Shown here: positions 6,534-29,318 of the stretch, one piece after another
How positions within the stretch are numbered: position 1 is the first letter of the stretch
Layout of the letters: the number at the start of each line of letters is the position of its first letter
NCBI GenBank assembly: GCA_903825245.1
Contig: CAIJZX010000012.1
Span: forward strand, 76,059 to 140,058
DNA length: 64,000 nt
Source: Candidatus Kerfeldbacteria bacterium
GTDB lineage: Bacteria > Patescibacteriota > Patescibacteriia > SBBC01 > CAIJZX01
Direction of reading: 5' to 3'
Notes under the pieces: model-generated
The model's input: only the letters and a program-made list of their open reading frames with translations
The model's database searches: none
What the model was told of the DNA's origin: nothing
Program-made: the position numbers and the translations under genes

Positions 6534-7274
6534 TCACTTTGTGCTTCGCGAGACCTTTGTCCGCCGCGGCTTCTTCATCTGATCTTCGTGTTGATCGACA
6601 AAGGTCTGCATGTCCCGATCAAGCTTGGGCGACCATACCATGCCGAGGCACGGCAGAGCTTCCACCAGGGCTCGCAGTTTCGGGATCTGATTCCCAAGTA
6701 CGTGCATGGCAACTCGCACATTCTTCTTCTGCCGATACTGCTCCCAGGCATACACGAGGTAATCGTATCGCTCGACGAAGTCGAAAAACTGCGCTTCGCG
6801 GCGGCAGGTCATGCTGAGATCCGACATGATAACCTGCGCTTCGCGCGGGAAGCGGGAGTAGTCCTTCAAACAGAACTGCAGAAGATAGGCCTGCTGAAAC
6901 GACAGTGTGCTCCAGCCATGTTCCTTGAACAGCCGGAGGAAGGCCTTGTACTCAGCCACGTCGCTAGCCTGGCTCTTGTTGTTGTACAACACATCGCGAC
7001 GCAGAACGCCTTCAGGAATGTCGTGAACGATACAGGCGCTCAGTAGAAGACCGACATCGAGACTTGACTCCAGGCCGCTTCGGCCAATGACATTCTTCAT
7101 CATCAAGGCCAGACCCAGAGTGTGTTGCGTCGAGGTCTGACGCCGCACGCTTGGCCGGCGCCGCAGGAACACGCTCCACCGCACCACCTGATTCAAATCT
7201 TCTTGAACCGAGATCCAGGGCGCGAGTTCCCGATCGAGTTCATTCAGCGGCAGTGCTTTGCCATTTCGAGACAT
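6534..7274 (-). CDS. HD-domain phosphohydrolase-like protein
   Basis: H..LGLALMM...VHDIPE resembles the H...HD metal-binding pattern. The gene lies in a GC-rich patch. Confidence 0.4.
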   Translation of the reverse strand: MSRNGKALPLNELDRELAPWISVQEDLNQVVRWSVFLRRRPSVRRQTSTQHTLGLALMMKNVIGRSGLESSLDVGLLLSACIVHDIPEGVLRRDVLYNNKSQASDVAEYKAFLRLFKEHGWSTLSFQQAYLLQFCLKDYSRFPREAQVIMSDLSMTCRREAQFFDFVERYDYLVYAWEQYRQKKNVRVAMHVLGNQIPKLRALVEALPCLGMVWSPKLDRDMQTFVDQHEDQMKKPRRTKVSRSTK

Positions 7275-8886: not shown

Positions 8887-10605
8887 ATGCGGGCAATAAA
8901 TATTCAGAAGTGCTACACTTGTGACATGGGAATATCGCGACTACAAACAAAACAGGCAGCACAAAAACACCTTCCTATACTTCCTGTTTTCAGTCGAGTA
9001 GTGTTGCTCGGCGTCGTTGGTATGAGCTTACTGTTCTTTGGACGTTCATCACCGACACCAGCTAAAGCCGCAACGTTAGCCAACCCACCTAGTACTGATG
9101 TTTATCAGGTAAACTCCCCGCACTGGTCACATATCAATGTCATGGACTACGGTTCCGATCTTCGGCTCCTTCCAGCTGGAACGGTGCAACAAAGCGGCTA
9201 CGAATGGTACGCCCGCCACGTCGATTTTATGAGTGTCGCTATGGCCACCGACTCCTTCGTTGAGAGCCACTCCACACTTTCGGCTCAGCTTAAAACCATG
9301 AACCCAAGTATTAAAACATTCGGATCGACACTCGATCTGACCATTTGCCAACATCGGCCGTGTGCAATGGACCAGCCAGTCAACGATCTTCAAAACGCCT
9401 ATCCTGAAGATCAGTACCTCCATTTTTCCGAAGACACAACGATGACGTTTATCGATTTGGACCAGACGGTAATAAAAACTATCACTATCCCCGGCTGCCC
9501 TGAACCGCAACCGATTACTGCGGCTTGCCGCGCCCAAACATTTATTTGGCATGAGGCACGATGGTTTCCGAATTTGAATAATACAGCGTGGCGACAGATG
9601 ATGTCCGCTCAACTGATCGAAAGGTTAATTCACAACACCGATAACACTCCAGATCCAATTGACGACTTGTATCTCGATGAGCACGGATTTGATACAACCT
9701 TCGGTTACCAAGCCACCGTCACCAGCGGCGGTGCGATTCGCGAATATAATGGACTTGCGCCATGGAATAACGCCACCCCGTCAGTACGAAATGCCTTTGA
9801 CGCCGCCTACAACGCTGACGTGGTCAGCTGGCTGACCTACCTACGTGCACAAGTAACAGCCGCCGGAAAGACCATGCACATCAACACTGGTGAATATTTT
9901 ATGAATGCCCTGGAATTCCAGCAGGCATTAGCCGCCAAGGGCGTGATGACCGAATGGCTCAATGCACCGGATCACTTTCGTTTTGGGGCGCCGATGTACT
10001 CACAATTTATCGACCAGGTGCACCAGATGACTTCATCCGGCGGTATGGTGGATTTAGCATACTCGTGGTGTACCGAAATGCCTGCTGGTTATAATGCTGG
10101 AAATTATCCGACGAGCACCGATCGATATTCGATGTGGAATCTCGCTAGTTACTACATGTCGAAGGAATTCCCTAGCGAATCCGGCCGTGTCTACTTTAAT
10201 CCTAATTTATGTATCCATCCTAACGCCCCGGATCCGCTCGACTTTGAACAGCAGTGGCTGAAGGCTTACGAAAAAGATGTCGGACAACCAGTGGACACCG
10301 CCACTATTATTCAACATGGCGCCGTCAGTTGCTCTACCAATAACAAAGAATACGGTATCTTCGCCCGTCACTACACGAACGCGTATGTTCTGTTACGAAC
10401 GCGTGATGATTACAACTGTTTGGATTATGGCGACACCACTGCTGTCACTGTCCCTCTCGCCTCATCTATGGTTCTTCTTGAACCCGACGGCACGTTCTCT
10501 GCGCCGATGAATTCCGTTTCAATTCGCAACGGTGAAGCAGTCATTCTCTTTCCTGCACCGGATACAATCGCGCCGGCCAAGGTCACTGACCTGCACACAA
10601 AATAA
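8887..10605 (+). CDS. secreted protein of unknown function, tandem paralog A
   Basis: It has an N-terminal hydrophobic segment; its start codon is uncertain. The NSPHWSHIN...GYEWYA.HVD block and the C-terminal VPL.SSMV.LE.DGT.SAPM.SV.IRNGEAVI..PAPDT block are shared with the downstream paralog. Confidence 0.5.
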   Translation: MRAINIQKCYTCDMGISRLQTKQAAQKHLPILPVFSRVVLLGVVGMSLLFFGRSSPTPAKAATLANPPSTDVYQVNSPHWSHINVMDYGSDLRLLPAGTVQQSGYEWYARHVDFMSVAMATDSFVESHSTLSAQLKTMNPSIKTFGSTLDLTICQHRPCAMDQPVNDLQNAYPEDQYLHFSEDTTMTFIDLDQTVIKTITIPGCPEPQPITAACRAQTFIWHEARWFPNLNNTAWRQMMSAQLIERLIHNTDNTPDPIDDLYLDEHGFDTTFGYQATVTSGGAIREYNGLAPWNNATPSVRNAFDAAYNADVVSWLTYLRAQVTAAGKTMHINTGEYFMNALEFQQALAAKGVMTEWLNAPDHFRFGAPMYSQFIDQVHQMTSSGGMVDLAYSWCTEMPAGYNAGNYPTSTDRYSMWNLASYYMSKEFPSESGRVYFNPNLCIHPNAPDPLDFEQQWLKAYEKDVGQPVDTATIIQHGAVSCSTNNKEYGIFARHYTNAYVLLRTRDDYNCLDYGDTTAVTVPLASSMVLLEPDGTFSAPMNSVSIRNGEAVILFPAPDTIAPAKVTDLHTK

Positions 10606-10671: not shown

Positions 10672-12411
10672 ATGGAAGACACACATGGTGATGTACATAA
10701 GAGTGCGTTCAAGCCGCAACGAGCACGAGTAGCTTTGGTGGGTTTGATTATTATTGGTATAGGCACGCTTATTATCCAACCGTCTTCGACACCTATCGTC
10801 AAAGCTCAAACGACCACGGTGTCTACCTACAACACCAACTCCCCGCACTGGTCACATATTAATATTGCCGACTTCGGAACAAACCTCCGTGCCCTCCAAC
10901 CCGGAGCTATACAACAAGCCGGGTACGAATGGTATGCCAGTCATGTTGACTCCCTAACCGTAGGTATGAATACGTTTTCCTACCCTGATAGTACCTCCAC
11001 CCAGGCAGCCACGATGAAATCACTCAATCCAACCATCAATACCGTTGGAAGTGATATTGATTTATTCATGTGTGAGCACTTTGGTTGTTGGAAAACCAAT
11101 GCAACGAACACGAATCAAAACAACCTGCCGGAGGAGTACTACCTTCACTTTTCTCAGAATACGCATATCGATTTTTTTAACCATGATCACGTCACCCCAG
11201 TCGGCTCGGTTGATATACCCGGCTGTCCGGATACCGGTCCCGTGACTGCTGCCTGTCGAGTCCAACTCTTCGAGTATGGAGAAGATACGGCTTGGCTTCC
11301 GAATACAAAAAGTACCGCTTGGCGAACCTGGTACGCCGACAACCTGCTGAGCAATATGGCCGTCACCGGGAGCGTTAGTAATCCAATCGATACTGTTTTT
11401 TTCGATGGTCACGGCATGTCCGGTTTTTCCGGAGCCATGTATGTTGGTAGTGCATTGGAAAACAGGATTACCACTGGCGGCGGTATTCGTGAATACGGAG
11501 GCAAGGCGCCACGCGATTTTAGCGTTGACCCATACCACGGTGACACTTTAGCTCAGGCTGACGCGCTCGACACCGAGTGGTCATCCGATGTTACGAGTTG
11601 GTTGGCTTATTTACGGTCTCGTCTTGCTGCCGTCGGAAAAAATATTCGCATCAACACCGGCACGACAATTTATGAGCCGTTGATATTTCAAGAAGTGCTG
11701 GCAGCCAACGGCGTTTTACCGGAGTACTTCAATTCCGCATACGGATTCGCATTTGGTGCGACTCAGTATACACCGTTCTTGCACAGTGTCCGGCAAGTGA
11801 CCGCAGCTGGCGGAACGGTTGATTTATATTTCCGTCCCTGCGCCGACAAACCCGCAGATCTTGCTACGTTCTTTTATACCTCGCCCGGTAATTACGATAC
11901 CGCGGTCAACAGATTCCGAATGTGGAACTTAGCCGGCTACTATATGGCGAAAGAGTCGACCAACGAATCCGGGAAAGTGTATTTTGATCCAACATTCTGT
12001 TTTGATTACACCAGTACGACCCCCGCACAAGATCTCGAGGCACAGTGGTTGAAAGCCTATGAACACGACGTCGGCCAGCCTGTCGGCGAACCTTCGGTTA
12101 TCCAGGAAGGAAAGGTCACCTGTCCGTCTAATGGGCATACCGATCCATCGGACGCCTACCATATCTATTCTCGACAGTATTCGAAAGCGCTCATTCTGCT
12201 CCGTACTCGTGACGCTTTATACTGCGAAACCTACGGCGATCCCACCATCGTCAATGTCCCTCTCTCTTCGTCAATGGTCATGCTCGAAGCAGATGGCACA
12301 TACTCCGCACCAATGACGTCCGTACCGATTCGCAACGGTGAAGCAGTCATTATGGTTCCCGCTCCGGACACCACAGCACCCGGCGCCATACACGATCTAC
12401 AAACGAAGTAA
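10672..12411 (+). CDS. secreted protein of unknown function, tandem paralog B
   Basis: The 579 aa protein has a signal anchor and is collinear with paralog A over its full length. Confidence 0.55.
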   Translation: MEDTHGDVHKSAFKPQRARVALVGLIIIGIGTLIIQPSSTPIVKAQTTTVSTYNTNSPHWSHINIADFGTNLRALQPGAIQQAGYEWYASHVDSLTVGMNTFSYPDSTSTQAATMKSLNPTINTVGSDIDLFMCEHFGCWKTNATNTNQNNLPEEYYLHFSQNTHIDFFNHDHVTPVGSVDIPGCPDTGPVTAACRVQLFEYGEDTAWLPNTKSTAWRTWYADNLLSNMAVTGSVSNPIDTVFFDGHGMSGFSGAMYVGSALENRITTGGGIREYGGKAPRDFSVDPYHGDTLAQADALDTEWSSDVTSWLAYLRSRLAAVGKNIRINTGTTIYEPLIFQEVLAANGVLPEYFNSAYGFAFGATQYTPFLHSVRQVTAAGGTVDLYFRPCADKPADLATFFYTSPGNYDTAVNRFRMWNLAGYYMAKESTNESGKVYFDPTFCFDYTSTTPAQDLEAQWLKAYEHDVGQPVGEPSVIQEGKVTCPSNGHTDPSDAYHIYSRQYSKALILLRTRDALYCETYGDPTIVNVPLSSSMVMLEADGTYSAPMTSVPIRNGEAVIMVPAPDTTAPGAIHDLQTK

Positions 12412-12537
12412 GCATTGAACCGGTTTTCAACGGTAGATGATTGACTGGATCAACGGAATTTGGTAGGGTTTTTATGTTAACGACCTTTCAGCAATTGTGC
12501 TGTGGGGCCGCTCTTTGACATCTCAAAGGAGGTTCAC

Positions 12538-14016
12538 ATGTCTCGTTCATCGTTCAGTCTGCTGTGCTTCTGCGTACTTCTCTTCGCCCAAAGTGTTCAC
12601 GCGCAAATTTCACCTTGGCCGTCAATTCAACACGACCAGTACCACACCGGTCGGACTTCAGTCACTGGACCGGCAACCGCGGACACTTCGTGGACGCGCC
12701 TGCTCGACGGCGACATACTGGGCGCAAATACCGCACCGGTCATCAGTACCACTGGCGCGATCTTGATCGGAACAACCCAGGGTCATGTCTTTGCCTACGA
12801 CGCATCAGGCCAGCGCCTGTGGAAGATCACCCTGCCCGGCACAATCAGTGCCCCGCTCGGCGTCGCGGATAATGGCCGAATCCTGGTGTCCACGGAAAAT
12901 GATTCATGCTACGTCCTTGATCCGAACGGCCTGGTACTCTCGCGACTCTTCATCGGTTTCGCCAACAGCGGACCGACCATGGTCGGCGATATCGCCTACC
13001 TATCTGGGAACTATAACGGCGCCGGTTTCGTTTTCAAGATCGATATGGATGTCCTGTGGTATACCGCGCAATCGAATAATCTATGGCAGATTGATCGATC
13101 GTCGCCCATCGTCACTCTTGGCGGGCAGGTCGTCGTCGGCACCACCGAAAACGTTTTCCCGTACAACTCGTCGGGTCATATTTCGGTGCTCGATGCGAAC
13201 TGCCAGGAGATCTGCTCCTACAACGTCGGATTTTTCAATGGCCGAGGTGTCCGCAGTTCAGTTTCACAAACCTCTACCGGTCGTATTGTTTGCGGTAGCG
13301 TCGGCGACAACGCATCACTGTACGGCGACGGCGCCTTCTGCAACAGTGACGTTACCTGCGGCGGTTGCGGTACAGGCGCCGGTCACTACTTCAGTTCTCC
13401 GGCGTTGTTAAGTAATGATACCGTCGTCCTCGGCACAAAGAATGGTCTCAGCCTGCGCGATCCGGCGGGGTGCGGACAAACCGCGCTCTATCCGACCGGA
13501 CCGATCCTCAATCCTTCACCGGTCGTCGACGGTCAAAACACGATCTACGTCGGCGACGATAATGGCAAGCTCTGGGCTTGGTCGTCTGCCGGCGTCAATA
13601 TCTGGAACCGTCAGCTCAACGCCGCCGCTACCGGCATCGCTATCGATGTACACGGCAACTTGTTCGTCGCCAGTACGCTCGGGCGATTGTACTGTTTCCG
13701 TGGTCCGAATCAGACTGCAGTAAATAGCGAACCTCAACCAGCGCACCTGCAACTGTCCGTTTGGCCAAATCCAGCGACCACGCAAACAACGTTGCAGCTG
13801 TCACCGCCGAAAGACGCTTTCGTCCACTGTGCCGTCTATGACCTGAGCGGCCGTCCAGTTATCACCCTTCTCGATGAACTTGTCACCGGTGGAACTCGAT
13901 CGATCACCTGGAATGGTCGGAATGAGCACGGCCAAAAAATCCCTTCCGGCATGTATTGGATTACTGCCCGTGCCGGCAACCAACGCATGACCAAAACCGT
14001 CGTCCTCCTTCCGTAG
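12538..14016 (+). CDS. beta-propeller (PQQ/BamB-like repeat) secreted protein with a T9SS-type C-terminal sorting domain
   Basis: AAGGAGG lies 6 nt upstream of the ATG at 12538. A signal peptide is followed by repeated G..V.A.D..G..LW blocks. The C-terminus (WPNPATTQTTLQL...VYDLSGRPVITLL...WNGRNEHGQKIPSGMYWI...VLL) matches the Por-secretion CTD pattern. The gene lies in a GC-rich patch. Confidence 0.6.
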   Translation: MSRSSFSLLCFCVLLFAQSVHAQISPWPSIQHDQYHTGRTSVTGPATADTSWTRLLDGDILGANTAPVISTTGAILIGTTQGHVFAYDASGQRLWKITLPGTISAPLGVADNGRILVSTENDSCYVLDPNGLVLSRLFIGFANSGPTMVGDIAYLSGNYNGAGFVFKIDMDVLWYTAQSNNLWQIDRSSPIVTLGGQVVVGTTENVFPYNSSGHISVLDANCQEICSYNVGFFNGRGVRSSVSQTSTGRIVCGSVGDNASLYGDGAFCNSDVTCGGCGTGAGHYFSSPALLSNDTVVLGTKNGLSLRDPAGCGQTALYPTGPILNPSPVVDGQNTIYVGDDNGKLWAWSSAGVNIWNRQLNAAATGIAIDVHGNLFVASTLGRLYCFRGPNQTAVNSEPQPAHLQLSVWPNPATTQTTLQLSPPKDAFVHCAVYDLSGRPVITLLDELVTGGTRSITWNGRNEHGQKIPSGMYWITARAGNQRMTKTVVLLP

Positions 14017-14024
14017 TACCTTCA

Positions 14025-14052
14025 CCGCATATACAACAGTATGCGGTTTTTT
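14025..14052 (+). terminator. rho-independent terminator
   Basis: The hairpin CCGCATA-tacaacag-TATGCGG is followed by TTTTTT. Confidence 0.5.
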
Positions 14053-14200
14053 CTTACCACGAAATTATGCTTCGAGGTTGGTGCTTGTATCATCTGCCGA
14101 CGATTTATAGACTGACGGCATTATACCGCCAGCGAGGCGAATTCTTTTTTCGCGAGCTTGAGGAGTTCTTGTTTGGAAATCATGCGCTCAATGATTAGTA

Positions 14201-14647
14201 TTAATAGTACCCGACCGACCACTCCACATTTTTAGGATTCACTTTAACAAACAGCTCATATGATGCTCCACCTGGCACGTCGGCGTAATAAAAAACGGAA
14301 TCACTATACCTTCTAACAGATAGCTCGCAAGTCTCCCCTTTTGGACAGTGAAGCGCTTGGTCTGCGTTAAAAAGTTGTTGTGCTTCCTGGTCGGATAATC
14401 GAAATGTACCGCGCATAGTTCCATCTCCCTTAAAGTCGGAATCTTCTTGAGATCGGATTAACTTCGTTTTATCAAATACAGCATCATTTTTTACCACCTC
14501 GTGGAGTGTAGTTAACAATCGTTGTGGCAGCGGCGGCGTGTGAATTAAGTAAAACACGTATGCTAGCCCGACTGAAATACAAAACAAACCGATTGCAATA
14601 CTAAATAACTGAATAATGGGGTGGAGCCGCTTCCAAAACTTGAGCAT
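14201..14647 (-). CDS. membrane-anchored hypothetical protein
   Basis: The 148 aa protein has an N-terminal TM helix. Confidence 0.35.
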   Translation of the reverse strand: MLKFWKRLHPIIQLFSIAIGLFCISVGLAYVFYLIHTPPLPQRLLTTLHEVVKNDAVFDKTKLIRSQEDSDFKGDGTMRGTFRLSDQEAQQLFNADQALHCPKGETCELSVRRYSDSVFYYADVPGGASYELFVKVNPKNVEWSVGYY

Positions 14648-20586: not shown

Positions 20587-20661
20587 GGGTTCCTAGCTCA
20601 ATGGTAGAGCAACGGCCTTTTAAGCCGTGGGTTCTGGGTTCGAGTCCCAGGGGACCCACCA
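20587..20661 (+). tRNA. tRNA-Lys (anticodon UUU), CCA encoded
   Basis: The 7-bp acceptor stem is gggttcc/gggaccc, the D-arm gctc-aatggta-gagc, the anticodon stem acggc/gccgt with loop cTTTTaa, and the T-arm ctggg-ttcgagt-cccag. Confidence 0.85.
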
Positions 20662-22418
20662 GCCAACAATTTGCGCCCCGAACTCATCCCGGCGATATGC
20701 CCAAGGATGTCTTGGGGCAACTTCAATTTAATACGTATTTCATAGGGTAAAAGTTGTTTTTCCTTACGTCGTCCGGCAATGCTGTCTTCCGCAGTGGAAG
20801 GACGGGAATATATAATGATCTCCTCGATCAGGGCATGAAGAAGCTGGTCGAGCTCCCGGCGGTCGCCAAAAATATCATTAAGTGCCTCCGAGTACTTTTT
20901 ATTGAACACATTAAGGCTAGAAATGTAGCTATCTGGCATTGCGTTTTTTGAAATGAGTAGGTCTAGCTTTTCCAATTCAGCTGTTAGTAGCACAATCTGC
21001 TTCTCCAACTTCTCCATTTCCTCTTTAAGCTTCGGCTGTTTGATATAACCAAGCTTATGCTGTTCCAAGATATTGTTTTTCCTCGCTGGCATTGCATCAA
21101 GCAACTGTCGCAACTGCTCTCTTTTCTTGGCGAAGTGTTTCTTTTCCGATTGTGTAGATTTTAGTTTTTGTTGGTACTTGAATACAGCCTCTGGGTTTTG
21201 TAAAAACTCTTTTGTCTTAGTAACTACATATCGTTCTATTTCTTCGGCTGGCAATGGAATTGTAAAACAATTTATTTCGTATTTGCTCGTATTTTTTCGA
21301 GCACACTTGTAGTAATAGGCAAAATTATCAGGCGCTGTTGTAAGCTTCTTTCGTTCCCCAATCCACCGATACATTGTAGGATCAGCGTCCGGCTTGAAAC
21401 ATGCATCACATTTAAGTAATCCTCTTAATAAATATATGTGTCCTTCTCGGGGCTCATCAATGATGTTTTTTGTCTGGGCAAGTATGTTTTGGGCTTTTTC
21501 AAAAGTCCCTACATCAATGATCTGTGGCAATGCATAGGGTGAAATACTCCACTTAGAAGGTTCTACCCGCTTACCGTCTCTTGTTTTACCAAAGTAGTAT
21601 TTACCAATGTATATGGGGTCTTTTAATATCTCTCTTACAATTTCCATTCGCCAAAAGTTCGGCGAACTCTTCTTTCTTATTGCCCCTTTATATTCTTTAT
21701 ACAAGACTGATGATGTTTCAGGTGAAGGCCGCTCCTCCTCCGTGAGTATCTTCGCGATCCGCTGTGCGGAAAGTTTTTGTGAAACGCACATGTCGAAAAT
21801 TGATCTGATAACTTCGGCTTCGGCTTCGAAGATGACCAACCTCTTTTCACTGTCTTTAATGAAGCCGTATTTCATGCCCGATCCCATGACAACTCCGTTC
21901 TTAATCGCTTGTTCCCGTCCGGCTTGTGTTCTTTGCTTGATCGTCTCAACTTCTAATTCAGCGATGACACCAATGATGTTCAAAATCGCCTTTCCAAAAG
22001 GTGTAGACGTGTCTATGCTCTCTGTTGCCGACAAGAATTGAACGTCGTATTCACCGAAAAAGTCGATAACTTCTAAGAGGATTTTTAATCGACGTGCGAA
22101 ACGATCAATTTTGTATACCGCAACTGCGTCGAAAGGCCTGTCTTCGGGTGTAGAGTTTGTGAGATCCTCTTGAAGTTTCGCAAAAGCAGGTCTCTCTGGA
22201 AGATCAACGGTACCGCTAATCCCTTCATCAAAATAAATATACTGATCCCCAGCGAGAACCATTGCATCAAGCCCATTATCGAGTTTTCCTCGGGCTTTTA
22301 TCAAGCCTAGTAACGCTTCTTGTTGGAGCTTTTTTCCGTACCTCTCAACCTGCTCATCAGTCGAAACCCGCAGGTAGAGAGCGACGCGGAGAGACGATTG
22401 TTGTTGGTTTCCGATCAT
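20598..22418 (-). CDS. large serine recombinase (integrase)
   Basis: The N-terminal resolvase catalytic domain (LRVALYLRVSTDEQ) is followed by a recombinase domain, a CxxC zinc ribbon and a coiled coil. The last roughly 64 nt of the ORF overlap the tRNA on the opposite strand. Confidence 0.85.
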   Translation of the reverse strand: MIGNQQQSSLRVALYLRVSTDEQVERYGKKLQQEALLGLIKARGKLDNGLDAMVLAGDQYIYFDEGISGTVDLPERPAFAKLQEDLTNSTPEDRPFDAVAVYKIDRFARRLKILLEVIDFFGEYDVQFLSATESIDTSTPFGKAILNIIGVIAELEVETIKQRTQAGREQAIKNGVVMGSGMKYGFIKDSEKRLVIFEAEAEVIRSIFDMCVSQKLSAQRIAKILTEEERPSPETSSVLYKEYKGAIRKKSSPNFWRMEIVREILKDPIYIGKYYFGKTRDGKRVEPSKWSISPYALPQIIDVGTFEKAQNILAQTKNIIDEPREGHIYLLRGLLKCDACFKPDADPTMYRWIGERKKLTTAPDNFAYYYKCARKNTSKYEINCFTIPLPAEEIERYVVTKTKEFLQNPEAVFKYQQKLKSTQSEKKHFAKKREQLRQLLDAMPARKNNILEQHKLGYIKQPKLKEEMEKLEKQIVLLTAELEKLDLLISKNAMPDSYISSLNVFNKKYSEALNDIFGDRRELDQLLHALIEEIIIYSRPSTAEDSIAGRRKEKQLLPYEIRIKLKLPQDILGHIAGMSSGRKLLAGGSPGTRTQNPRLKRPLLYH

Positions 22419-22743
22419 AGGACAAGAGAGGTAACTAGCCCAGAACTATGCAAACATGATTATCATACTCGTTTTATTGCTATAAAGCCATAATTGCTAA
22501 CCCGAGGTAATTAAACTATAATTCAATCTGTTTCCGAGGCCTAGATGCTCATTTCTACAATTTACTTAGCCTAAACTTCGGCCTATGGCCGGGGCACGGC
22601 GATCAAACCAAGAGAGGCGAACAGCTCCTAGTCAGAGCACCTCTCTTGGTCGTGCGTGGAAACGCGCACGGGTGGCCGTAAGGTCATCGCTGGCTAGGGG
22701 CTTTGTGTTTGTACAAACCCGCCGCCAGATATTTACAAAATAT

Positions 22744-22971
22744 ATGGCACAGGCAAAAACTGTTGGAATTATGAGCTTGGTTATTCTCGGCACATTGTTG
22801 CTTGGGACTACTTTTTGGTGGTTTCAGCTACGCCCATTTTCTGACCATAGGGCATGCGCGAAATATACTACTACCCAAGCAGAAAAGATGGATTTTGACC
22901 TCCATACGCCCATTTACTTTCCCGGTTATGGTGTGGTTTATGACATGTGCTTACATGGTAAGGGCTATTAA
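22744..22971 (+). CDS. small membrane-anchored protein (island cargo)
   Basis: The internal Met MAQAKTVGIMSLVILGTLLL gives a TM anchor. The 12-bp palindrome GTTTGTACAAAC lies just upstream. Confidence 0.35.
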   Translation: MAQAKTVGIMSLVILGTLLLGTTFWWFQLRPFSDHRACAKYTTTQAEKMDFDLHTPIYFPGYGVVYDMCLHGKGY

Positions 22972-22974
22972 CGT

Positions 22975-23835
22975 ATGCAAATACTTCTCTGGTTGGCTTA
23001 CGCCGTTGTCGGTATATTCGTGATAGTGTTTCTCGCTGGTGGAGTTACTGCCGCTGTAAAGAATTCAGGAAAAAGAAGGCGTCTCCATTCTATAGGGGCA
23101 GTAGCACAAATTCCTGCTGATTTAAGGATAATCATGCGTGAGATTTATACTGCACATAAAAAACAAGACGTTGCACTCGTAAACTCGGTTACCGTTTCCA
23201 CTGGCATCGTGCAACTAAATAAAATTCTAGAATTGATGAAGCCAGAAAACCGACTCAAATACCTATCAGCAGGTATGCAGGGCGATGTGACTGCTTTTAC
23301 GGCAATGGAGAACGAGCTAGTATCAAGAAACTACAAGGTCAATGCGGCAAAGATTGTTACTGGTATTATCCTGAATGATCTCGATGATCCGCTTTTGAAA
23401 ATGAAAGGGCAGGAGACAGCCCCACCTTCCCCAAGTGCTAAGAGTAAAATCCTTCTCTTTGAAGATGACAAGATATTACGAACTTTGTATGAAGCAAAAT
23501 ATCATCAACAAGGGTTTGACGTTGCTGGGTATGACAATCCAACCAGCGACCCGGTGAGCGTTGTTTTGAGAGAAAAGCCTGATGTGATTTCAATGGATAT
23601 TGTCATGCCAATTATGGACGGGTTTACTGCAACCGAGTTGCTGAAAACCGATGCGCGAACAAAAGGTATTCCCATTGTTATTTTTACTAACCATGCACAG
23701 CATAAGGACATTGATCGTGGCAAGGCATTGGGTGCGGCGGATTACCTGATCAAAGCACATTTTACGCCTGATGAGGTGGTGGATCGTTTTCGGCGGGTTC
23801 TCAATTTAAATGACGTAGCAAATCGTAAACTTTGA
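22975..23835 (+). CDS. membrane-anchored protein with a C-terminal response-regulator receiver (REC) domain
   Basis: An N-terminal TM helix is present. The C-terminus (KILLFEDD......ISMDIVMP..DG......K) matches the CheY-like receiver pattern. No output domain was recognised. Confidence 0.55.
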   Translation: MQILLWLAYAVVGIFVIVFLAGGVTAAVKNSGKRRRLHSIGAVAQIPADLRIIMREIYTAHKKQDVALVNSVTVSTGIVQLNKILELMKPENRLKYLSAGMQGDVTAFTAMENELVSRNYKVNAAKIVTGIILNDLDDPLLKMKGQETAPPSPSAKSKILLFEDDKILRTLYEAKYHQQGFDVAGYDNPTSDPVSVVLREKPDVISMDIVMPIMDGFTATELLKTDARTKGIPIVIFTNHAQHKDIDRGKALGAADYLIKAHFTPDEVVDRFRRVLNLNDVANRKL

Positions 23836-23856
23836 AGCCGCTAATCGATTATACCT

Positions 23857-24855
23857 ATGAGCCACTTCACTCCTCAAACTAGAGCACTCTCGATCCTCAC
23901 TTTAATCACGGGGTTATTACTACTTGGCGCATCTTGCTCAAATAAAAGAGCGATAGATACGAACACAACTAACTCAAAGGTTACAGAAACCAACAATGCA
24001 GTATTGGCCAATATAAACACCACATATTCTAACCAGAATACTTCGGTTGTTGTAAATAACTCGGTAAATCCATCATCCAACTCGAATCAATCTATTACAA
24101 ACGGAAAAGTTGTTGTACAACCAAAAAACACGAATACGGAGAAAAAAGTATTAAATACCAACACGGCTCCAAAAGTGTTGAGCACCAACACTAACGTGGA
24201 TGTCCCACCAGCTACAACACCTGCGCCCACAGCGCGGCTAACAGCATCAACAGATTGCCCAGTTTTGCAACCGGCGGTGCTGACTTGGAATACAACCGGC
24301 GCTCAAACCGTCACATTAGAATCCTCAACGGGTGGGGATCGCCAGACGATAGACATACAAAATGCGGCTACGGGAAACGTAACTATAAATTCTCAAAAAA
24401 CCACGAGCTATTATCTAACTGCAACAAATCAAAGTGGACAGAAAGCAACGGCGCAGGTTCGGCTAGATCGCCCAAACGTAGACCCTAACTATCCGATTAT
24501 CACCGGCTACGCCGATACTTTGGGCGTGGTTTCTCATTCATCAAGCTATAACGGGTATGGCTGTGGTGGTAAGGGTCAGCCGATTGCACACATCGGCGAC
24601 ACCATAACGTTAACTGTTGACGCGTATGATCCGAATGGCGATCCGTTGGTATACAGATTCAGCTCAGTGTTTCCATCAGCCATGGGTGTAACCAGTGGTT
24701 GGACAAGCAGTAGCACCTATACGTGGACATTCACTTCTGCTGATGTGGGGTCGATGAGATGCGTCTATATTTCCGTAAAAGATAATGACGGGTATGACCG
24801 AATTGCTGATTATGACGATACAAGCCCTGCTTGCTATGATATTGCACACCCATAG
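23857..24855 (+). CDS. secreted Asn/Thr/Ser-rich protein with a C-terminal beta-rich domain
   Basis: A signal peptide is followed by an N/T/S low-complexity region. The C-terminal 150 aa are of normal complexity. Confidence 0.45.
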   Translation: MSHFTPQTRALSILTLITGLLLLGASCSNKRAIDTNTTNSKVTETNNAVLANINTTYSNQNTSVVVNNSVNPSSNSNQSITNGKVVVQPKNTNTEKKVLNTNTAPKVLSTNTNVDVPPATTPAPTARLTASTDCPVLQPAVLTWNTTGAQTVTLESSTGGDRQTIDIQNAATGNVTINSQKTTSYYLTATNQSGQKATAQVRLDRPNVDPNYPIITGYADTLGVVSHSSSYNGYGCGGKGQPIAHIGDTITLTVDAYDPNGDPLVYRFSSVFPSAMGVTSGWTSSSTYTWTFTSADVGSMRCVYISVKDNDGYDRIADYDDTSPACYDIAHP

Positions 24856-24903
24856 TTACGTTAACAGCGCAGTAAGTAATCAACAATGATTAGCTAAAAC
24901 ATT

Positions 24904-25161
24904 ATGCCGAGATTAAATTCAAGTGACAACGAGGACGAGATGAGTTCAAGGTTACGGCAAGGGGTTCTTGCTACTGTATTGACTTTGTCGCTTATCGGAT
25001 TAGGCGCGGCTGTTTTCGACGTTCACCATGTCTGGTGGGAAAATGATACGGTACAGGGAATACAGATGCTCTCATTGATTGGTGTGTTCTACTGCCTATT
25101 GGCAACATTGCTCAAAATTCTTAATAAAAAGAAACTATCCGAGGATAACTCCGAGGATTAG
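24904..25161 (+). CDS. small membrane protein
   Basis: The 85 aa protein has two hydrophobic helices. Confidence 0.3.
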   Translation: MPRLNSSDNEDEMSSRLRQGVLATVLTLSLIGLGAAVFDVHHVWWENDTVQGIQMLSLIGVFYCLLATLLKILNKKKLSEDNSED

Positions 25162-25435
25162 CCCTTCCTGGTAATTTACTACTTAATTAACGAATCTTTC
25201 TTTGGCCGTATTTGTCAATACGTCGATAGATTTTTTAGTAACTTCCGGCGCACTTGTGCTGGCGTTTTTTTCTTTGTTGAAATGAGGGTGATCAATCGCT
25301 TTTTCATATAATTGAGTATACCATCCGCCCTTATCTTTCCAAGGGTACTCTTTGAATCAAGATAGCAAAAATTAGGAGGATGTGGTTTTATGGACTATAA
25401 TTGAGTAGTTAAACCGTGCAATCTCGTTATTGGCA

Positions 25436-28400
25436 ATGATCCTAAGTGCAGCATTAGACCGAATAAACGACCCCGAAGTGTCCTTATTTGTTTTGTTATT
25501 GCTTATTATGGTAGGAATCATCTACCTTTCCCGATGGATAGTTCAAAAGATCAAGGAGAGTGGAAATACAATTTCGGCAAAGACGAACAAAGAATACAAG
25601 AATCTATGTAAAAAAAGAGAGTTTTTTTGGCACAGGCTATTTAGGGATTTTTACGCCCCCTCAGTACGCTCTTCAATTGCAATGGGTGTAATCGCATTTG
25701 GAATATATGCGTTGTCACACTTTATCCAAACAAAGAGCCAAACCCTTTCTTTTGTTAATGGCAGTCACTACCAAAACTTGATCGCAATTTACTCTGGTAT
25801 CGCCGGCATTATCTTTGCACTTATAATCTTTGTCGCTGAAAGCTTGCGCGATGAGCAATCACGCGATCAAGCACGCGTAATACTTCGAACGACTTACCTA
25901 TACCCACTGGTGGTTCTTGCTGTTCTAAACTATAGCGTTTACGCATGGGGAGACGTCAATTCTCTTGGCGTAGTCCCCGTTTTATTTCTTGGAGCATTTT
26001 CTATTTTTTCACTTTTCCGTCTATTTAGAATACTCTTAGATAGGAGTGAAAACTTTAACCAAAAAATTAAGTTGCTAACCGATCGTTTGAGGCTAAGTAT
26101 TGATGGCGCTATTCGTCAGCGACTGGGTAATGTGATTTTATTTAAATGGCTTACTGATTATAAAATACCGATTTCCTTCTACCCGTTTACTACGGAGGGC
26201 TCAGCATACTACAATTTTACTTCAAAAAAATCGGGAATTGTTGCAGACATCGATCTGGGAAAACTCGAAGACTTTGCCAAAATGGTTGAAGAGGCGGCAA
26301 ACAAGAATGATTTTAGTTTTTTTGGCAGAGAAGGAAAGGCGCTATCGATCAATACATCGACGGATACGACGGAACCAAGTGAGGGCAGCACTAGAACGTA
26401 TTCAAAGAATGATCACGTATATTTTGGCAAGCTATACAGAGACGAGGTCAAGCTTGACGACGTGCTTCTTTCTGTTAAAAAAGACATCATCGGCGATCAA
26501 AAGAAGGTGCTAGATAAGCTCAATGCCACTTTTAAAAAAATCTACGTAGTAAAAAAAGAAGAGCACGGTATTTCCGAACAAAACCGACTAGAGCTTTCCG
26601 CACAGAAAGACCAATTTATAGCCGCTGTAAAAGCGGGAAGTATGGGAAAGATAAGAGAGGGCTCGGCAATATATTTAAGCCTTGCAGAGACTTTTCTAAA
26701 AGCCCTCAATGAATGTGGCGGGGGTTATAGTTTTGATCAAGCTCGCCGCGAAATGGGTTCGATAATTAGCCGTTGGAATGAAGCGGATTGGCTTCAAGAG
26801 GATATTAGCGAAATACATAGAGCAGCACTAGACACGCATGATCAAAACGTGATTGATGAAATTGCCTTTTTGCCTATGAAGATCGTGAGTCTAGCCATAG
26901 AATCACGAGACCATTTTATTTTTCAGACCTTCATTCAGTTTCAATTGAGGTTGTATCTCGGATCACTGCGCGAGAATGATACCGATTTAAAGAGGCATTT
27001 GCTTGATCGTTCATGGCGATATTTAAAAGAATCTGCTGATTTTTGGGTCGAGCACGAAATAACAAAGGAAGATAATGAGAAAGATATTCCTAGGTTGAAG
27101 GATTTTGCTATATACTACTTTTCTGTATTTCAGACCATACTGCGGGAAGCCGTAATAAAAAAGGACAAAGATGGGTTTGAGCTCTTCGCAGTTGCCCTTT
27201 CAGGCTTGTTTGATTCTTTCAAATATACCCTTGAAGATGAGCGCACTCGGCAACCAGTGGCTGATGCTATTAAGGAAATTTGGTTAAATAAAGACCAGAT
27301 GATATTTGGCCTAACGAGCTGGATTTTTTCAGAATATAAAAAGAATCCAAACAATGAGACAACAAAAAGTTCATACGGAAAAATTCAGTCCCTAATAAAA
27401 AACAATATAGTTGATTTAACGTCTACCTTTCTATCAGTTCATGACTTTAAAGTAGGTGATTTCTGGGGATGGGATCGTTGGGATATGATTGCCGATGGTC
27501 AGGTGCATACTATCGATGTTAGCGGGAAAATAGAAAGATATTTTATTGTTCGCGGGTTGAAGATACTAGCCACAATGACTGACGATAACATTCGAGCCAT
27601 AGAACTACCGACGAACCGAAATATGGCATTTCAGGCTGATAGCGGTGGCGGCTTGCTTATGGTATTGGAGCAAATTCAAAACAATCAAAGTGATTGGGAT
27701 GCGCACCTTACCCCGGTTGAAATTGGGAAAATTGATCTTTTTAAGGCACTTCTCCAAAAGGCGAAGGCGAAACAAGAATCAGACGAGCAAGAACAGGTAA
27801 AGGCTAGTCCAATCAGCGAAAAGAAGAGGAAAGAATTCATTCAGGAGTTTCTTGAAGGCTATCGTCAGTCGAGTTATTTCCGTCATATCGTGAAGCACTA
27901 TGGCAATTTGGTCGAAAAACCAAATGATCAAATTTCAGAAAACAGACTGGGCGTGAATATGGTGGAAGATAAGCAAGTCTTCTTTGAGCACTGGCACGTG
28001 CACTACTCCAAATGGGGTAACCAGTTTGGGCACGACATGGCCAGAGCCGAAAATGACAGCATACTTTCTAAGGTCGTTAGTTTTAGTGCAACTCTAAACG
28101 AGACGGACTTAGATCAAGTTATTGAAAGATTTACAGAAAAGAACGACATCATCATTATCGCTTTAAACCAAGCGATATTTGGATTCTTCCATCAATCAAA
28201 CAAATTTGAATATAAACGTTTTGATGATCCTGAAAAAATACCATCATACAGTCAGGAGGGGTGGTGGAAGATTGATCAAAACCTCCGTATCCCAGTTTTT
28301 GAAATCCATGACCGTAATCAGAACAACGCCATCCTAGTTTTAAACAAGAAAAAAATGGGTCGATTAGAACAATACTCGCCATTGCGTGATGCAGAACTGC

Positions 28401-28636
28401 CTAGTGACCAAGTTGAACATTTCTATTTTTCCATTAAAGCTTTCTCAGAGAATCCTGATTTGATGACAAAGATCATATCCAATCCGCCTGCTTGGTTAAC
28501 GGAGAAGGGAAATGAAGAACAACAAAAAGATCACCTCAAAGGAAAGGTGTGGATGAAAATATATGAGTCCTATGCCTATAACAAGGGTGATGATTTTGAG
28601 GGGTATATTTTCCCAGTTGCTAACCCGCTAGTCTAG
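25436..28636 (+). CDS. large (about 1066 aa) polytopic membrane protein with a big soluble domain, unknown function
   Basis: Five to six N-terminal TM helices (first about 210 aa) are followed by about 850 aa of soluble sequence. No Walker or other recognisable motif was seen. The ATG at 25436 is preferred over the TTG at 25430. Confidence 0.55.
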   Translation: MILSAALDRINDPEVSLFVLLLLIMVGIIYLSRWIVQKIKESGNTISAKTNKEYKNLCKKREFFWHRLFRDFYAPSVRSSIAMGVIAFGIYALSHFIQTKSQTLSFVNGSHYQNLIAIYSGIAGIIFALIIFVAESLRDEQSRDQARVILRTTYLYPLVVLAVLNYSVYAWGDVNSLGVVPVLFLGAFSIFSLFRLFRILLDRSENFNQKIKLLTDRLRLSIDGAIRQRLGNVILFKWLTDYKIPISFYPFTTEGSAYYNFTSKKSGIVADIDLGKLEDFAKMVEEAANKNDFSFFGREGKALSINTSTDTTEPSEGSTRTYSKNDHVYFGKLYRDEVKLDDVLLSVKKDIIGDQKKVLDKLNATFKKIYVVKKEEHGISEQNRLELSAQKDQFIAAVKAGSMGKIREGSAIYLSLAETFLKALNECGGGYSFDQARREMGSIISRWNEADWLQEDISEIHRAALDTHDQNVIDEIAFLPMKIVSLAIESRDHFIFQTFIQFQLRLYLGSLRENDTDLKRHLLDRSWRYLKESADFWVEHEITKEDNEKDIPRLKDFAIYYFSVFQTILREAVIKKDKDGFELFAVALSGLFDSFKYTLEDERTRQPVADAIKEIWLNKDQMIFGLTSWIFSEYKKNPNNETTKSSYGKIQSLIKNNIVDLTSTFLSVHDFKVGDFWGWDRWDMIADGQVHTIDVSGKIERYFIVRGLKILATMTDDNIRAIELPTNRNMAFQADSGGGLLMVLEQIQNNQSDWDAHLTPVEIGKIDLFKALLQKAKAKQESDEQEQVKASPISEKKRKEFIQEFLEGYRQSSYFRHIVKHYGNLVEKPNDQISENRLGVNMVEDKQVFFEHWHVHYSKWGNQFGHDMARAENDSILSKVVSFSATLNETDLDQVIERFTEKNDIIIIALNQAIFGFFHQSNKFEYKRFDDPEKIPSYSQEGWWKIDQNLRIPVFEIHDRNQNNAILVLNKKKMGRLEQYSPLRDAELPSDQVEHFYFSIKAFSENPDLMTKIISNPPAWLTEKGNEEQQKDHLKGKVWMKIYESYAYNKGDDFEGYIFPVANPLV

Positions 28637-28707
28637 TTAGCTTTATCCGGCCAACATCAAAGTAAAATCGGACTTTTCATTTTGTTTTTTGGTGCTATGG
28701 TTAATTT

Positions 28708-29127: not shown

Positions 29128-29135
29128 ACGATTGA

Positions 29136-29318
29136 ATGACCATGTTGACCGACAAACAGATCGAGGAGTTTCAGGCGCTTTATAAAAAGAATTTTGGGAC
29201 TGATATTAGCCGAGAGGAGGTGCTAGAGTCGGCTATTCGGCTCATTAACCTGATCAAAGTGGTATACAAACCGATGACAAAAGAAGAGTACAAGAGGTAC
29301 TCCGACGATCTGAGATAA
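29136..29318 (+). CDS. small hypothetical protein
   Basis: It is 60 aa long. Confidence 0.3.
   Translation: MTMLTDKQIEEFQALYKKNFGTDISREEVLESAIRLINLIKVVYKPMTKEEYKRYSDDLR

What the first reader, a model, noticed from the sequence alone, without database searches (positions are those of the whole stretch)
12538..14016. Beta-propeller protein with a T9SS (Por) C-terminal sorting domain in a GC-rich patch
The C-terminal about 90 aa (WPNPATTQTTLQL...VYDLSGRPVITLL...TWNGRNEHGQKIPSGMYWI...KTVVLLP) match the type-A CTD recognised by type IX secretion, a system restricted to Bacteroidota and relatives. The gene is markedly GC-richer than its surroundings, has a perfect SD and its own terminator. Either this organism has T9SS machinery (taxonomically informative) or the gene is a recent horizontal acquisition whose sorting signal is non-functional here.
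Basis: partly seen in the sequence, partly recalled or inferred. Interest (0 to 1): 0.6.

Follow-up and report, generated by a model that had tools for sequence, protein, structure and literature searches.

The report
T9SS-type tail on a CPR propeller protein
A secreted beta-propeller protein carries the tail domain that Bacteroidota-type bacteria use for type IX secretion, but its host is an ultra-small CPR (Patescibacteria) bacterium that is not expected to have that system, so the tail probably does another job there.

Summary
ORF 12538-14016 (+) encodes a 492-aa protein with a Sec-type signal peptide, a probably eight-bladed PQQ/BamB/YxaL-like beta-propeller, and a C-terminal 7-stranded beta-sandwich. 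That sandwich passes the T9SS type-A CTD model (TIGR04183, 36.8 bits against a cutoff of 23). Its best structural matches are solved T9SS CTDs (PorU, NucA, PorZ). The SD, the terminator and the GC excess are all real, but the GC excess is modest (0.566 vs 0.484).

The window comes from a Candidatus Kerfeldbacteria-like Patescibacteria (CPR) genome: its EF-G is 92% identical to a Kerfeldbacteria EF-G, and there is no L30 gene. This group is proposed to lack an outer membrane, and T9SS genes are reported only from the FCB group. The gene is also not a recent import. Orthologs of 58-70% identity exist, one in a Kerfeldbacteria MAG and one at a syntenic locus in a close relative. dS is saturated. 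The orthologs are also GC-richer than their flanks, and no donor-like homolog was found.

The tail is under purifying selection and aligns almost without gaps with FCB-type CTDs. Its core is also homologous to the FlgD-Ig repeats of large proteins of monoderm Firmicutes. The most likely reading is a Sec-exported surface or extracellular binding protein whose CTD-class domain works independently of T9SS. Interest is moderate.

The parts
12526..12532 (+). Shine-Dalgarno AAGGAGG, 5-nt spacer to the ATG
   Evidence: Read directly from the sequence.
12538..14016 (+). CDS of 492 aa plus TAG stop. An upstream in-frame GTG at 12502 has no SD and is not the likely start.
   Evidence: The identical protein P0001 was called in public assemblies. 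Two independent ENA assemblies are 100% identical over 11670-14562 and 11669-14481.
12538..12603 (+). Predicted Sec signal peptide (aa 1-22, MSRSSFSLLCFCVLLFAQSVHA, cleavage before QISPWP). There is no lipobox.
   Evidence: Sequence inspection. The small-x-A | Q(V/I)SPWP junction is conserved in all orthologs that have a complete N-terminus. No signal-peptide predictor was run. AF2 pLDDT is below 50 for aa 1-33.
12604..13743 (+). PQQ_2/BamB/YxaL-like beta-propeller, probably eight blades (aa about 23-402), with four invariant cysteines (C226, C274, C277, C312).
   Evidence: Pfam PQQ_2 47.8 bits. AF2 model pLDDT is about 80-90 over most blades. Foldseek hits in PDB: Cake8 (TMt 0.88), YxaL of Bacillus velezensis (TMt 0.80), BamB (TMt about 0.75). 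Invariant columns are listed.
13744..14013 (+). C-terminal 7-stranded Ig-like beta-sandwich of the T9SS type-A CTD / FlgD_ig class (aa 403-492; the TIGR04183 match covers aa 408-489, nt 13759-14004).
   Evidence: TIGR04183 36.8 bits against a cutoff of 23. AF2 pLDDT 94.9 with seven strands. Best Foldseek PDB hits are the PorU CTD 6za2 (E 1.6e-4, TMq 0.73), the NucA CTD in the T9SS translocon 8glk_D, PorZ 5m11 and the mirolase CTD 8qb1, with FlgD in between. The domain aligns almost without gaps with outside CTDs.
14024..14057 (+). Intrinsic-terminator-like hairpin (9-bp stem, 6-nt loop) followed by a T-run
   Evidence: The scan found 2 such sites in 2 kb against 1.9 expected by chance, so it is the position right after the stop codon that gives this site weight.

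Best explanation
The gene belongs to a small, vertically inherited family of a Candidatus Kerfeldbacteria-like Patescibacteria (CPR) lineage.

The protein is made with a cleavable Sec signal peptide. It is exported across the single membrane, which in a monoderm puts it outside the cell. It then acts as a non-enzymatic binding or scaffold module. That module is a probably eight-bladed, disulfide-stabilised PQQ/BamB/YxaL-type propeller, located on or near the cell surface.

Its C-terminal domain is a true homolog of the T9SS type-A CTDs of FCB-group bacteria. It was most likely acquired together with, or fused to, the propeller in an ancestor of this lineage. Here it is retained as a folded Ig-like module. 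It may serve as a stalk, as an attachment to the wall or S-layer, or as an adhesion module. It does not act as a signal for an outer-membrane T9SS translocon.

Shown: the domain architecture, the CTD-class membership by HMM and by fold, the CPR host, the orthologs and synteny, and purifying selection on the CTD.

Inferred: the export route, the absence of T9SS and of an outer membrane in the host, the T9SS-independent role of the tail, and a binding rather than catalytic function.
For: Host.
- The window's EF-G has 120 top hits whose named members are all Patescibacteria, Parcubacteria, Kerfeldbacteria or Nomurabacteria. One is 92% identical and labelled Kerfeldbacteria.
- S5 abuts L15 with no L30 gene between them. 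Lack of L30 is a CPR trait (PMC9297842).

Vertical history.
- Full-length orthologs are 58-70% identical. One lies in a Kerfeldbacteria MAG (L006).
- One lies at a syntenic locus, L003. There Nramp is 79-88% identical and DUF1048 78% identical to the window copies, and a DUF1801 gene follows the ortholog as it does in the window.
- dS is 1.2-2.7, that is, saturated.
- The orthologs are also GC-richer than their flanks: 0.626 vs 0.528 in L003 and 0.566 vs 0.525 in L004.

The CTD is kept.
- dN/dS is 0.14-0.32 and pN is 0.30-0.41 for the CTD.
- There are 21 invariant columns in 90.
- All six members match TIGR04183.

Precedent for a role without T9SS.
- An exhaustive profile search found 224,606 cluster representatives. 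The best scorers carry up to 15 internal tandem copies of the domain core.
- These include proteins of the monoderm Firmicutes Acetivibrio cellulolyticus and Tumebacillus.
- The propeller's close structural relative YxaL comes from the monoderm Bacillus velezensis.

No T9SS nearby.
- No T9SS component turned up among the roughly 40 window ORFs scanned.
- No second CTD is present in six-frame translations of the window, L003 or L004.

Literature.
- T9SS genes are absent outside FCB phyla (PMC11285876).
- Patescibacteria are proposed to lack an outer membrane (PMC12102498).
Against: - Only 64 kb of the genome could be inspected. The absence of T9SS and outer-membrane genes in the rest of the genome is inferred from taxonomy and literature, not tested.
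- The tail keeps features typical of working T9SS signals: the extreme C-terminal position, the PNP motif, the invariant Gly-Arg in the beta3-beta4 loop, and a (T/K)xVVLL last strand. This would also fit a working sorting signal.
- The gene's persistently deviant composition is not explained by this account.
- No direct evidence shows what the propeller binds.
- One ortholog contig is labelled 'uncultured Gammaproteobacteria' (L005). The restriction of the family to CPR is therefore not fully established, although the label looks unreliable.
Confidence: 0.55

Rival explanations
1. The CTD is a working sorting or attachment signal in this CPR lineage. It would be read by an unrecognised machinery: a highly divergent T9SS-like system, or a different C-terminal processing and anchoring pathway adapted to a single-membrane envelope.
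For: The CTD sits at the extreme C-terminus in all orthologs. It is under purifying selection. It keeps the PNP, SGR and VVLL motifs shared with FCB CTDs. All six members match TIGR04183.
Against: No second CTD protein and no T9SS component were found in the window or in the ortholog loci. The family is tiny: about 7 sequences among 5.8 billion clusters, and no more turned up in the JGI metagenome scan. This is unlike T9SS organisms, which encode many cargoes. The terminal basic residue typical of the outside CTDs is lost in 5 of 6 members. T9SS genes are reported absent outside FCB (PMC11285876).
Confidence: 0.1
2. One reading: the gene is a recent horizontal acquisition from a T9SS-bearing (FCB) bacterium, and its CTD is a non-functional leftover.
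For: The gene is the GC-richest stretch of the window and its codon usage is the most deviant of the long genes. The CTD's nearest outside relatives include proteins annotated as T9SS type-A sorting domain proteins of Rhodothermales and Eisenbacteria.
Against: Orthologs occur at 58-70% identity with saturated dS, and the locus is syntenic in a relative. The GC excess is shared by the orthologs. Outside the family the best full-length hits are 22-28% identical. CTD dN/dS is 0.14-0.32, so the domain is not decaying. An ancient transfer of the CTD, or of the whole gene, into the lineage remains likely and is part of the best explanation.
Confidence: 0.04
3. The tail is a plain FlgD-type Ig-like domain with no evolutionary link to T9SS cargo. 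The TIGR04183 match would then reflect only the general similarity between two related Ig-like families.
For: A sequence search of PDB finds FlgD Ig domains best (E 6e-8), while the mirolase CTD scores only E 1.5. Pfam FlgD_ig scores 25.9 bits, close to Por_Secre_tail at 27.4. The top exhaustive hits are internal tandem repeats matching profile positions of about 10-78.
Against: TIGR04183 covers the whole model (positions 1-70 of 72) at 36.8 bits, including the N-terminal PNP strand and the last strand, which FlgD matches lack. The structural top hits are T9SS CTDs. The domain aligns end to end, almost without gaps, with C-terminal domains ending in KxVLLK/R, including ones annotated as T9SS type-A sorting domains. 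Solved CTDs all come from distant Bacteroidota, which explains their weak sequence scores.
Confidence: 0.12
4. Host mimicry. The CPR cell is an episymbiont of a T9SS-bearing FCB bacterium. It displays a CTD-tagged propeller so that the host's surface CTD-binding proteins (PorV or the attachment complex) capture it, giving attachment.
For: CPR bacteria are widely inferred to be episymbionts (PMC12102498, PMC7906910). The CTD is conserved although the cell probably has no T9SS of its own. The protein evolves faster than its neighbours (65% vs 78-88% identity), as surface-interaction proteins often do.
Against: There is no direct evidence and the host is unknown. The T9SS-typical terminal residue is lost in 5 of 6 members.
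Confidence: 0.04
5. Assembly or binning artefact: the gene really belongs to an FCB organism and was joined to CPR sequence by mis-assembly.
For: The composition differs from the flanks.
Against: Two independent ENA assemblies reproduce both junctions at 100% identity (window 11670-14562 and 11669-14481). The gene lies on the same contig as the CPR ribosomal-protein operon. The ortholog in L003 sits between the same Nramp and DUF1801/DUF1048 neighbours.
Confidence: 0.02

Closest known systems
T9SS type-A C-terminal sorting domain (TIGR04183 / Pfam PF18962 Por_Secre_tail) of FCB-group cargo proteins
   Same: It passes both curated thresholds. It sits at the extreme C-terminus behind a Sec signal and a passenger domain. 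It has a 7-strand beta-sandwich whose best PDB matches are the PorU, NucA, PorZ and mirolase CTDs. It aligns almost without gaps with CTDs of the 'PNPF...YDvSGR...WNGRD..G...GvYFyRL...KKmVLLK' type.
   Different: The host is a Patescibacteria/CPR bacterium, not an FCB bacterium. No T9SS genes or other cargo were seen nearby. The family has PNP(A/V/T/M) in place of PNPF and YWxT in place of YFxR. It has lost the terminal Lys/Arg in 5 of 6 members. Pfam passes by only 0.4 bits.
FlgD Ig-like domain (Pfam PF13860) as found in flagellar hook-cap FlgD and as tandem repeats in large proteins of Firmicutes and others
   Same: The core (profile positions about 17-78) matches FlgD of Salmonella and Pseudomonas at E 6e-8 to 2e-7. 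It also matches up to 15 tandem repeats in giant proteins of Acetivibrio cellulolyticus, Tumebacillus and Ignavibacteriales.
   Different: Pfam FlgD_ig falls just below its gathering score (25.9 vs 27). FlgD matches lack the first (PNP) strand and the last (VVLL) strand. Here the domain is single and terminal.
BamB / YxaL family of eight-bladed PQQ-like beta-propellers (Pfam PQQ_2)
   Same: PQQ_2 scores 47.8 bits. The predicted fold superposes on YxaL (TMt 0.80) and BamB (TMt about 0.75). YxaL comes from the monoderm Bacillus velezensis.
   Different: Sequence identity is only 16-18%. TIGR03300 (BamB) scores 45 bits against a cutoff of 285, so this is not BamB. It has no lipoprotein signal. 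It carries an extra C-terminal CTD and four conserved cysteines.
PorZ (T9SS surface component: two beta-propellers plus a non-cleaved CTD)
   Same: The architecture is the same, propeller followed by a type-A CTD. It appears as a Foldseek hit for both the whole model (E 5.6e-14) and the CTD alone (E 1.2e-3).
   Different: It has one propeller, not two. TMq is only 0.27 for the whole chain. NF052228 (PorZ) scores 17 bits against a cutoff of 260. It is not an ortholog.

Membership tests
T9SS type-A CTD domain family (TIGR04183 / PF18962) | Scores at or above the curated HMM thresholds | tested here: met
   TIGR04183 scores 36.8 bits against 23. PF18962 scores 27.4 against 27.0, which is marginal. 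All 6 family members match TIGR04183 at E<=0.01.
T9SS type-A CTD domain family (TIGR04183 / PF18962) | Domain at the extreme C-terminus of a protein with an N-terminal Sec signal peptide | tested here: met
   The match covers aa 408-489 of 492. A conserved n-h-c region with an AxA-type site is seen by inspection. No predictor was run.
T9SS type-A CTD domain family (TIGR04183 / PF18962) | Compact seven-stranded Ig-like beta-sandwich resembling solved CTDs (PMC11285876) | tested here: met
   The AF2 model has pLDDT 94.9 and seven strands. Foldseek top hits are the PorU CTD (TMq 0.73), NucA CTD, PorZ and mirolase CTD, at modest E-values of 1e-4 to 3e-3, with FlgD and Fn3-like domains interleaved.
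T9SS type-A CTD domain family (TIGR04183 / PF18962) | Conserved Gly at the start of beta4 (the beta3-beta4 loop motif) and a Lys in the middle of the last strand (the C-terminal motif) (PMC11285876) | tested here: inconclusive
   Gly-Arg in the D(L/V/I)(S/N)GR motif is invariant. The last strand has Lys in 3 of 6 members, Arg in 1 and Thr in 2. The terminal basic residue is lost in 5 of 6. Those motifs were defined in P. gingivalis and are known to vary between species.
Functional T9SS cargo (protein secreted by a type IX system) | Host genome encodes the T9SS core (PorK/L/M/N or GldK/L/M/N, SprA/Sov, PorV, PorU, etc.) and has an outer membrane | not testable with these tools
   Only the 64-kb window and short ortholog loci were readable. 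None of the roughly 40 window ORFs scanned matched a T9SS component; 11 of them were scanned against NCBIfam, which holds T9SS component models. The host is Patescibacteria. The literature reports no T9SS outside FCB (PMC11285876) and proposes that Patescibacteria have no outer membrane (PMC12102498). The expectation is 'not met'.
Functional T9SS cargo (protein secreted by a type IX system) | Host is a member of the FCB superphylum | tested here: not met
   The top 120 EF-G hits are CPR wherever they are named, with 92% identity to a Kerfeldbacteria MAG. There is no L30 gene between S5 and L15.
Functional T9SS cargo (protein secreted by a type IX system) | CTD-dependent secretion, with CTD cleavage by PorU | not testable with these tools
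   This needs experiment.
BamB (outer membrane protein assembly factor, TIGR03300) | Equivalog-level HMM score, and a lipoprotein signal | tested here: not met
   TIGR03300 scores 45.2 bits against a cutoff of 285.2, and the match covers only aa 49-129. There is no lipobox (by inspection).
PQQ_2 beta-propeller superfamily (PF13360) | Pfam gathering threshold, and a beta-propeller fold | tested here: met
   47.8 bits against 27.6. The fold matches eight-bladed propellers at TMt 0.75-0.88. The overall model pLDDT of 72 leaves the blade count probable rather than certain.

The most novel reading that the evidence does not exclude
A monoderm CPR lineage has kept a bona fide T9SS-type sorting domain for tens of millions of generations because the domain is still 'read' by something. 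One reader could be an unrecognised C-terminal sorting or anchoring pathway of the CPR envelope. The other could be the T9SS surface machinery of an FCB host cell, in which case the CTD would work as a molecular grappling hook for episymbiosis.
Probability: 0.1. Interest if true: 0.8.

Novelty: new member of a known kind. Interest (0 to 1): 0.4.

Why it matters
T9SS type-A CTDs are used routinely to predict secretomes and to infer that an organism has a T9SS. This case shows a threshold-passing, structurally typical CTD that is conserved under selection in a lineage that should have neither an outer membrane nor a T9SS. The domain alone is therefore not a safe taxonomic or secretion-route marker.

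The case also flags a rare, fast-evolving, exported propeller protein as a candidate surface-interaction factor of a Kerfeldbacteria-like CPR bacterium. Host-attachment molecules are largely unknown in this group. No paper in the searched library links T9SS sorting domains with CPR.

Tried and rejected
- **Genome-contig scan with the single protein.** It found nothing. The rerun with the family alignment found only two full-length orthologs among 185,579 species representatives, plus weak partial hits in Bacteroidota, Ignavibacteriaceae and Acidobacteriota.
- **Metagenome-contig scan with the family alignment.** No further family members.
- **CTD-profile word-indexed search.** It returned only 22 short fragments and did not resolve which taxa hold the nearest CTDs. 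Cluster look-ups of the best exhaustive hits gave names for only 5 of the 20 proteins asked about.
- **Contexts of the nearest outside CTD fragments.** L018 and L019 gave no taxonomic information.
- **Retrieval of the 140-kb NCBI source contig.** This was attempted in order to look for T9SS genes beyond the window. It failed and only short ENA contigs were returned.
- **A conserved partner gene next to the family.** Rejected. The neighbours differ between the window, L003, L004 and L006, so the two upstream 572/579-aa paralogs are not part of a conserved unit.
- **Literature searches linking T9SS, TIGR04183 or sorting domains with CPR or Patescibacteria.** Nothing relevant was found.
- **The LOOT RNA.** It is not described in the main text of its source paper.
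Full report
**1. The observation**

The ORF at 12538-14016 (+) exists and encodes 492 aa from the ATG.
- An AAGGAGG Shine-Dalgarno lies at 12526-12532, five bases before the ATG.
- A hairpin with a 9-bp stem at 14024-14047, followed by a T-run, starts eight bases after the stop.
- Pfam finds PQQ_2 (47.8 bits), Por_Secre_tail PF18962 (27.4 bits, GA 27.0) and FlgD_ig (25.9 bits, GA 27).
It covers aa 408-489 and model positions 1-70 of 72.

The gene is the GC-richest 1.5-kb stretch of the window.
- Its GC is 0.566 against 0.484 for the window. It ranks 2nd of 54 ORFs for GC (z=1.9) and 2nd for GC3 (0.639).
- Its codon usage is the most deviant among the 18 genes of 300 codons or more.
- The excess is modest. 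Ordinary neighbours reach the same level: 6534-7274 has GC3 0.692 and ribosomal protein L15 has GC 0.568.

All parts of the observation are therefore confirmed.

**2. Who owns the gene**

The window also carries a ribosomal-protein operon with SecY, Adk, Map, EF-Tu and EF-G.
- The best 120 EF-G relatives are Patescibacteria, Parcubacteria, Kerfeldbacteria or Nomurabacteria wherever a source names them. One is a Candidatus Kerfeldbacteria MAG at 92% identity. Several sit on contigs of about 1 Mb, as expected for CPR genomes.
- S5 (44246-44779) overlaps L15 (43764-44249) with no L30 gene between them. This is a recognised CPR trait (PMC9297842).

The host is thus a Kerfeldbacteria-like CPR bacterium, not a member of the FCB group. 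T9SS genes are reported to be absent outside FCB phyla (PMC11285876). Patescibacteria are proposed to lack an outer membrane (PMC12102498).

**3. The gene is not a chimera**

Two independent ENA assemblies from other samples are 100% identical to the window across both junctions, at 11670-14562 and 11669-14481.

**4. History of the gene**

A search of 5.8 billion protein clusters found only six close relatives, at 58-70% identity. After those, nothing scored better than 22-28% identity.
- One ortholog lies in a Candidatus Kerfeldbacteria groundwater MAG (L006).
- One lies in contig L003 at a syntenic position. There Nramp is upstream (79-88% identical to the window's Nramp) and DUF1801 and DUF1048 are downstream (DUF1048 is 78% identical to the window's copy).
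- In the window, four extra genes are inserted between Nramp and the target, including two paralogous genes for 572-aa and 579-aa proteins.
- The target is less conserved than its neighbours (65% identity).
- Nei-Gojobori estimates give saturated dS (1.2-2.7). dN/dS is 0.08-0.18 for the propeller and 0.14-0.32 for the tail.
- The orthologs are also GC-richer than their flanks: 0.626 vs 0.528 in L003 and 0.566 vs 0.525 in L004. The deviant composition is therefore an old, maintained property of the family, not a trace of recent import.
- No conserved neighbour accompanies the gene.
- The family is rare. Only two of 185,579 species-representative genomes carry it, and the JGI metagenome scan found none.

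**5. Anatomy**

*Signal peptide.* The N-terminus (MSRSSFSLLCFCVLLFAQSVHA|QISPWP) has the n-h-c layout of a Sec signal peptide. A small-x-Ala site precedes Q(V/I)SPWP and is conserved in every ortholog with a complete N-terminus. P0006 was annotated with too short a start; the full ORF in L006 restores the signal peptide. There is no lipobox. No signal-peptide predictor was run.

*Propeller.* The AF2 model has mean pLDDT 72, and 80-90 over most blades. It superposes on eight-bladed propellers:
- the designed protein Cake8 (TMt 0.88);
- YxaL of Bacillus velezensis (TMt 0.80);
- BamB (TMt about 0.75).

It is not BamB itself: TIGR03300 scores 45 bits against a cutoff of 285. Four cysteines are invariant, as expected for an extracytoplasmic protein.

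*Tail.* Modelled alone, the tail has pLDDT 94.9 and seven strands.
- Its best PDB matches are the CTD of PorU (6za2; E 1.6e-4, TMq 0.73), the NucA CTD bound in the T9SS translocon (8glk_D), PorZ and the mirolase CTD. FlgD Ig domains and Fn3-like domains are interleaved among these hits.
- By sequence against PDB, FlgD is best (E 6e-8, core positions 17-78) and the mirolase CTD is weak (E 1.5).

**6. What class of domain the tail is**

An exhaustive profile search found 224,606 cluster representatives at E<=1e-3.
- The top scorers are giant proteins with up to 15 internal tandem copies matching positions of about 10-78.
- They include 'FlgD immunoglobulin-like domain containing' proteins of the monoderm Firmicutes Acetivibrio cellulolyticus and Tumebacillus, and of Ignavibacteriales.
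- Full-length matches (positions 2-90) occur at the C-terminal end of other proteins.

The nearest single-domain relatives are 33-44% identical. Two of them are annotated as T9SS type-A sorting domain proteins of Rhodothermales and Candidatus Eisenbacteria. They share an almost gapless alignment and the consensus PNPF...YDvSGR.V..L......G.h.v.WNGRd..G..v.sGvYFyRl......tkKmVLLK.

The family's tail is therefore a genuine member of the C-terminal CTD class, which is itself related to FlgD_ig. It differs from the consensus in three ways:
- PNP(A/V/T/M) replaces PNPF;
- YWxT replaces YFxR;
- the terminal Lys/Arg is replaced by Pro, or is missing, in 5 of 6 members.

**7. Mechanism**

*Best-supported account (confidence about 0.55).* The protein is exported by Sec and its signal peptide is cleaved. 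It stays at the surface of a single-membrane CPR cell or is released from it. The disulfide-stabilised propeller acts as a binding scaffold. The CTD-class sandwich acts as a folded stalk, anchor or adhesion module without T9SS. Homologous FlgD-Ig repeats occur in large proteins of monoderm Firmicutes. The tail, or the whole gene, most probably entered an ancestor of the lineage from an FCB-type cargo gene.
- Shown: the architecture, the domain class, the host taxon, the orthology and synteny, and the selection on the tail.
- Inferred: the export route, the absence of T9SS and of an outer membrane, and the role of the tail and the propeller.

*Rivals.*
- A still-functional sorting signal read by an unknown CPR machinery (0.10).
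- A plain FlgD-Ig domain unrelated to T9SS cargo (0.12).
- Mimicry of the T9SS of an FCB host (0.04).
- Recent HGT with a dead signal (0.04).
- An assembly artefact (0.02).

**8. Limits**
- Only 64 kb of the host genome was readable, and the 140-kb source contig could not be fetched. The absence of T9SS is therefore not tested genome-wide.
- No T9SS component appeared among the roughly 40 window ORFs scanned. No second CTD appeared in six-frame translations of the window, L003 or L004.
- One ortholog contig carries the label 'uncultured Gammaproteobacteria' (L005). I could not check this label.
- The persistent GC and codon deviation of the family remains unexplained.

**9. Verdict**

Both branches of its interpretation are unlikely. 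What is there is a rare, vertically inherited, exported propeller protein of a CPR bacterium. It carries a conserved T9SS-class tail in an organism that should have no T9SS.

This is a new member of known domain families in an unexpected host. It is of moderate interest, mainly as a caution for CTD-based inference and as a candidate CPR surface factor.

Noticed in passing
window 20587-29980: A likely integrated mobile element at tRNA-Lys. An exact 20-nt direct repeat (GAGTCCCAGGGGACCCACCA) lies at the tRNA 3' end (20642-20661) and again at 29899-29918. The two copies bracket about 9.3 kb of low-GC DNA (0.40-0.45). This DNA carries a large serine recombinase (20598-22418, minus strand), a response-regulator protein, and 332-aa and 1068-aa proteins with no family match. 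A 69-nt repeat (29723-29791 and 29912-29980, 96% identical) sits at the right end. This is the window's clearest foreign island.
   Followed up: partly
window 22568-22688 (+): A full-length match to the Rfam LOOT RNA motif (RF03000; 79.1 bits against a gathering score of 46.4), inside the putative integrated element just downstream of the recombinase gene. The motif's function is unknown, and its source paper does not discuss it in the main text.
   Followed up: partly
window 8887-10605 and 10672-12411 (+): Two tandem paralogs of 572 and 579 aa (46% identical) lie directly upstream of the target on the same strand. Both have hydrophobic N-termini, and the second has a weak C-terminal Ig-like hit (Big_11). 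Neither has a Pfam or NCBIfam match. They are absent from the syntenic locus L003, so they are not a conserved partner of the target.
   Followed up: partly
window 43764-44779 (-): Ribosomal protein genes S5 and L15 overlap by 4 nt with no L30 gene between them. This fits the CPR-wide loss of uL30 (PMC9297842).
   Followed up: yes
L004/L005 (CAZFGG010000017.1, GCA_964518425.1): The contig carrying a 59%-identical ortholog is titled 'uncultured Gammaproteobacteria bacterium'. Its closest relatives are Kerfeldbacteria-like, so the label may be a mis-classification of the MAG.
   Followed up: no
L006 1552-3045 (JACQBO010000044.1): The public protein P0006 (MBI3572993.1, 466 aa) starts at an internal Met. 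The ORF extends upstream to a GTG, giving 497 aa, and this restores the conserved signal peptide.
   Followed up: yes
window 12538-14016; L003 4715-6202; L004 2818-4311: All three orthologs are GC-richer than their own flanks, by 4 to 10 percentage points (GC3 up to 0.78 in L003), even though synonymous sites are saturated. The bias is therefore maintained in some way. Selection on codon usage or GC-biased gene conversion in a recombining surface-protein gene are possible causes, neither tested.
   Followed up: partly
window 59744-61822 and 53092-54375 (-): EF-G and EF-Tu are separated by about 5 kb that includes a 340-aa TPR protein (56093-57115). The gene just upstream of EF-G carries only a weak ChrB_C hit rather than matching S7/S12. 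This is an unusual layout for the str region.
   Followed up: no
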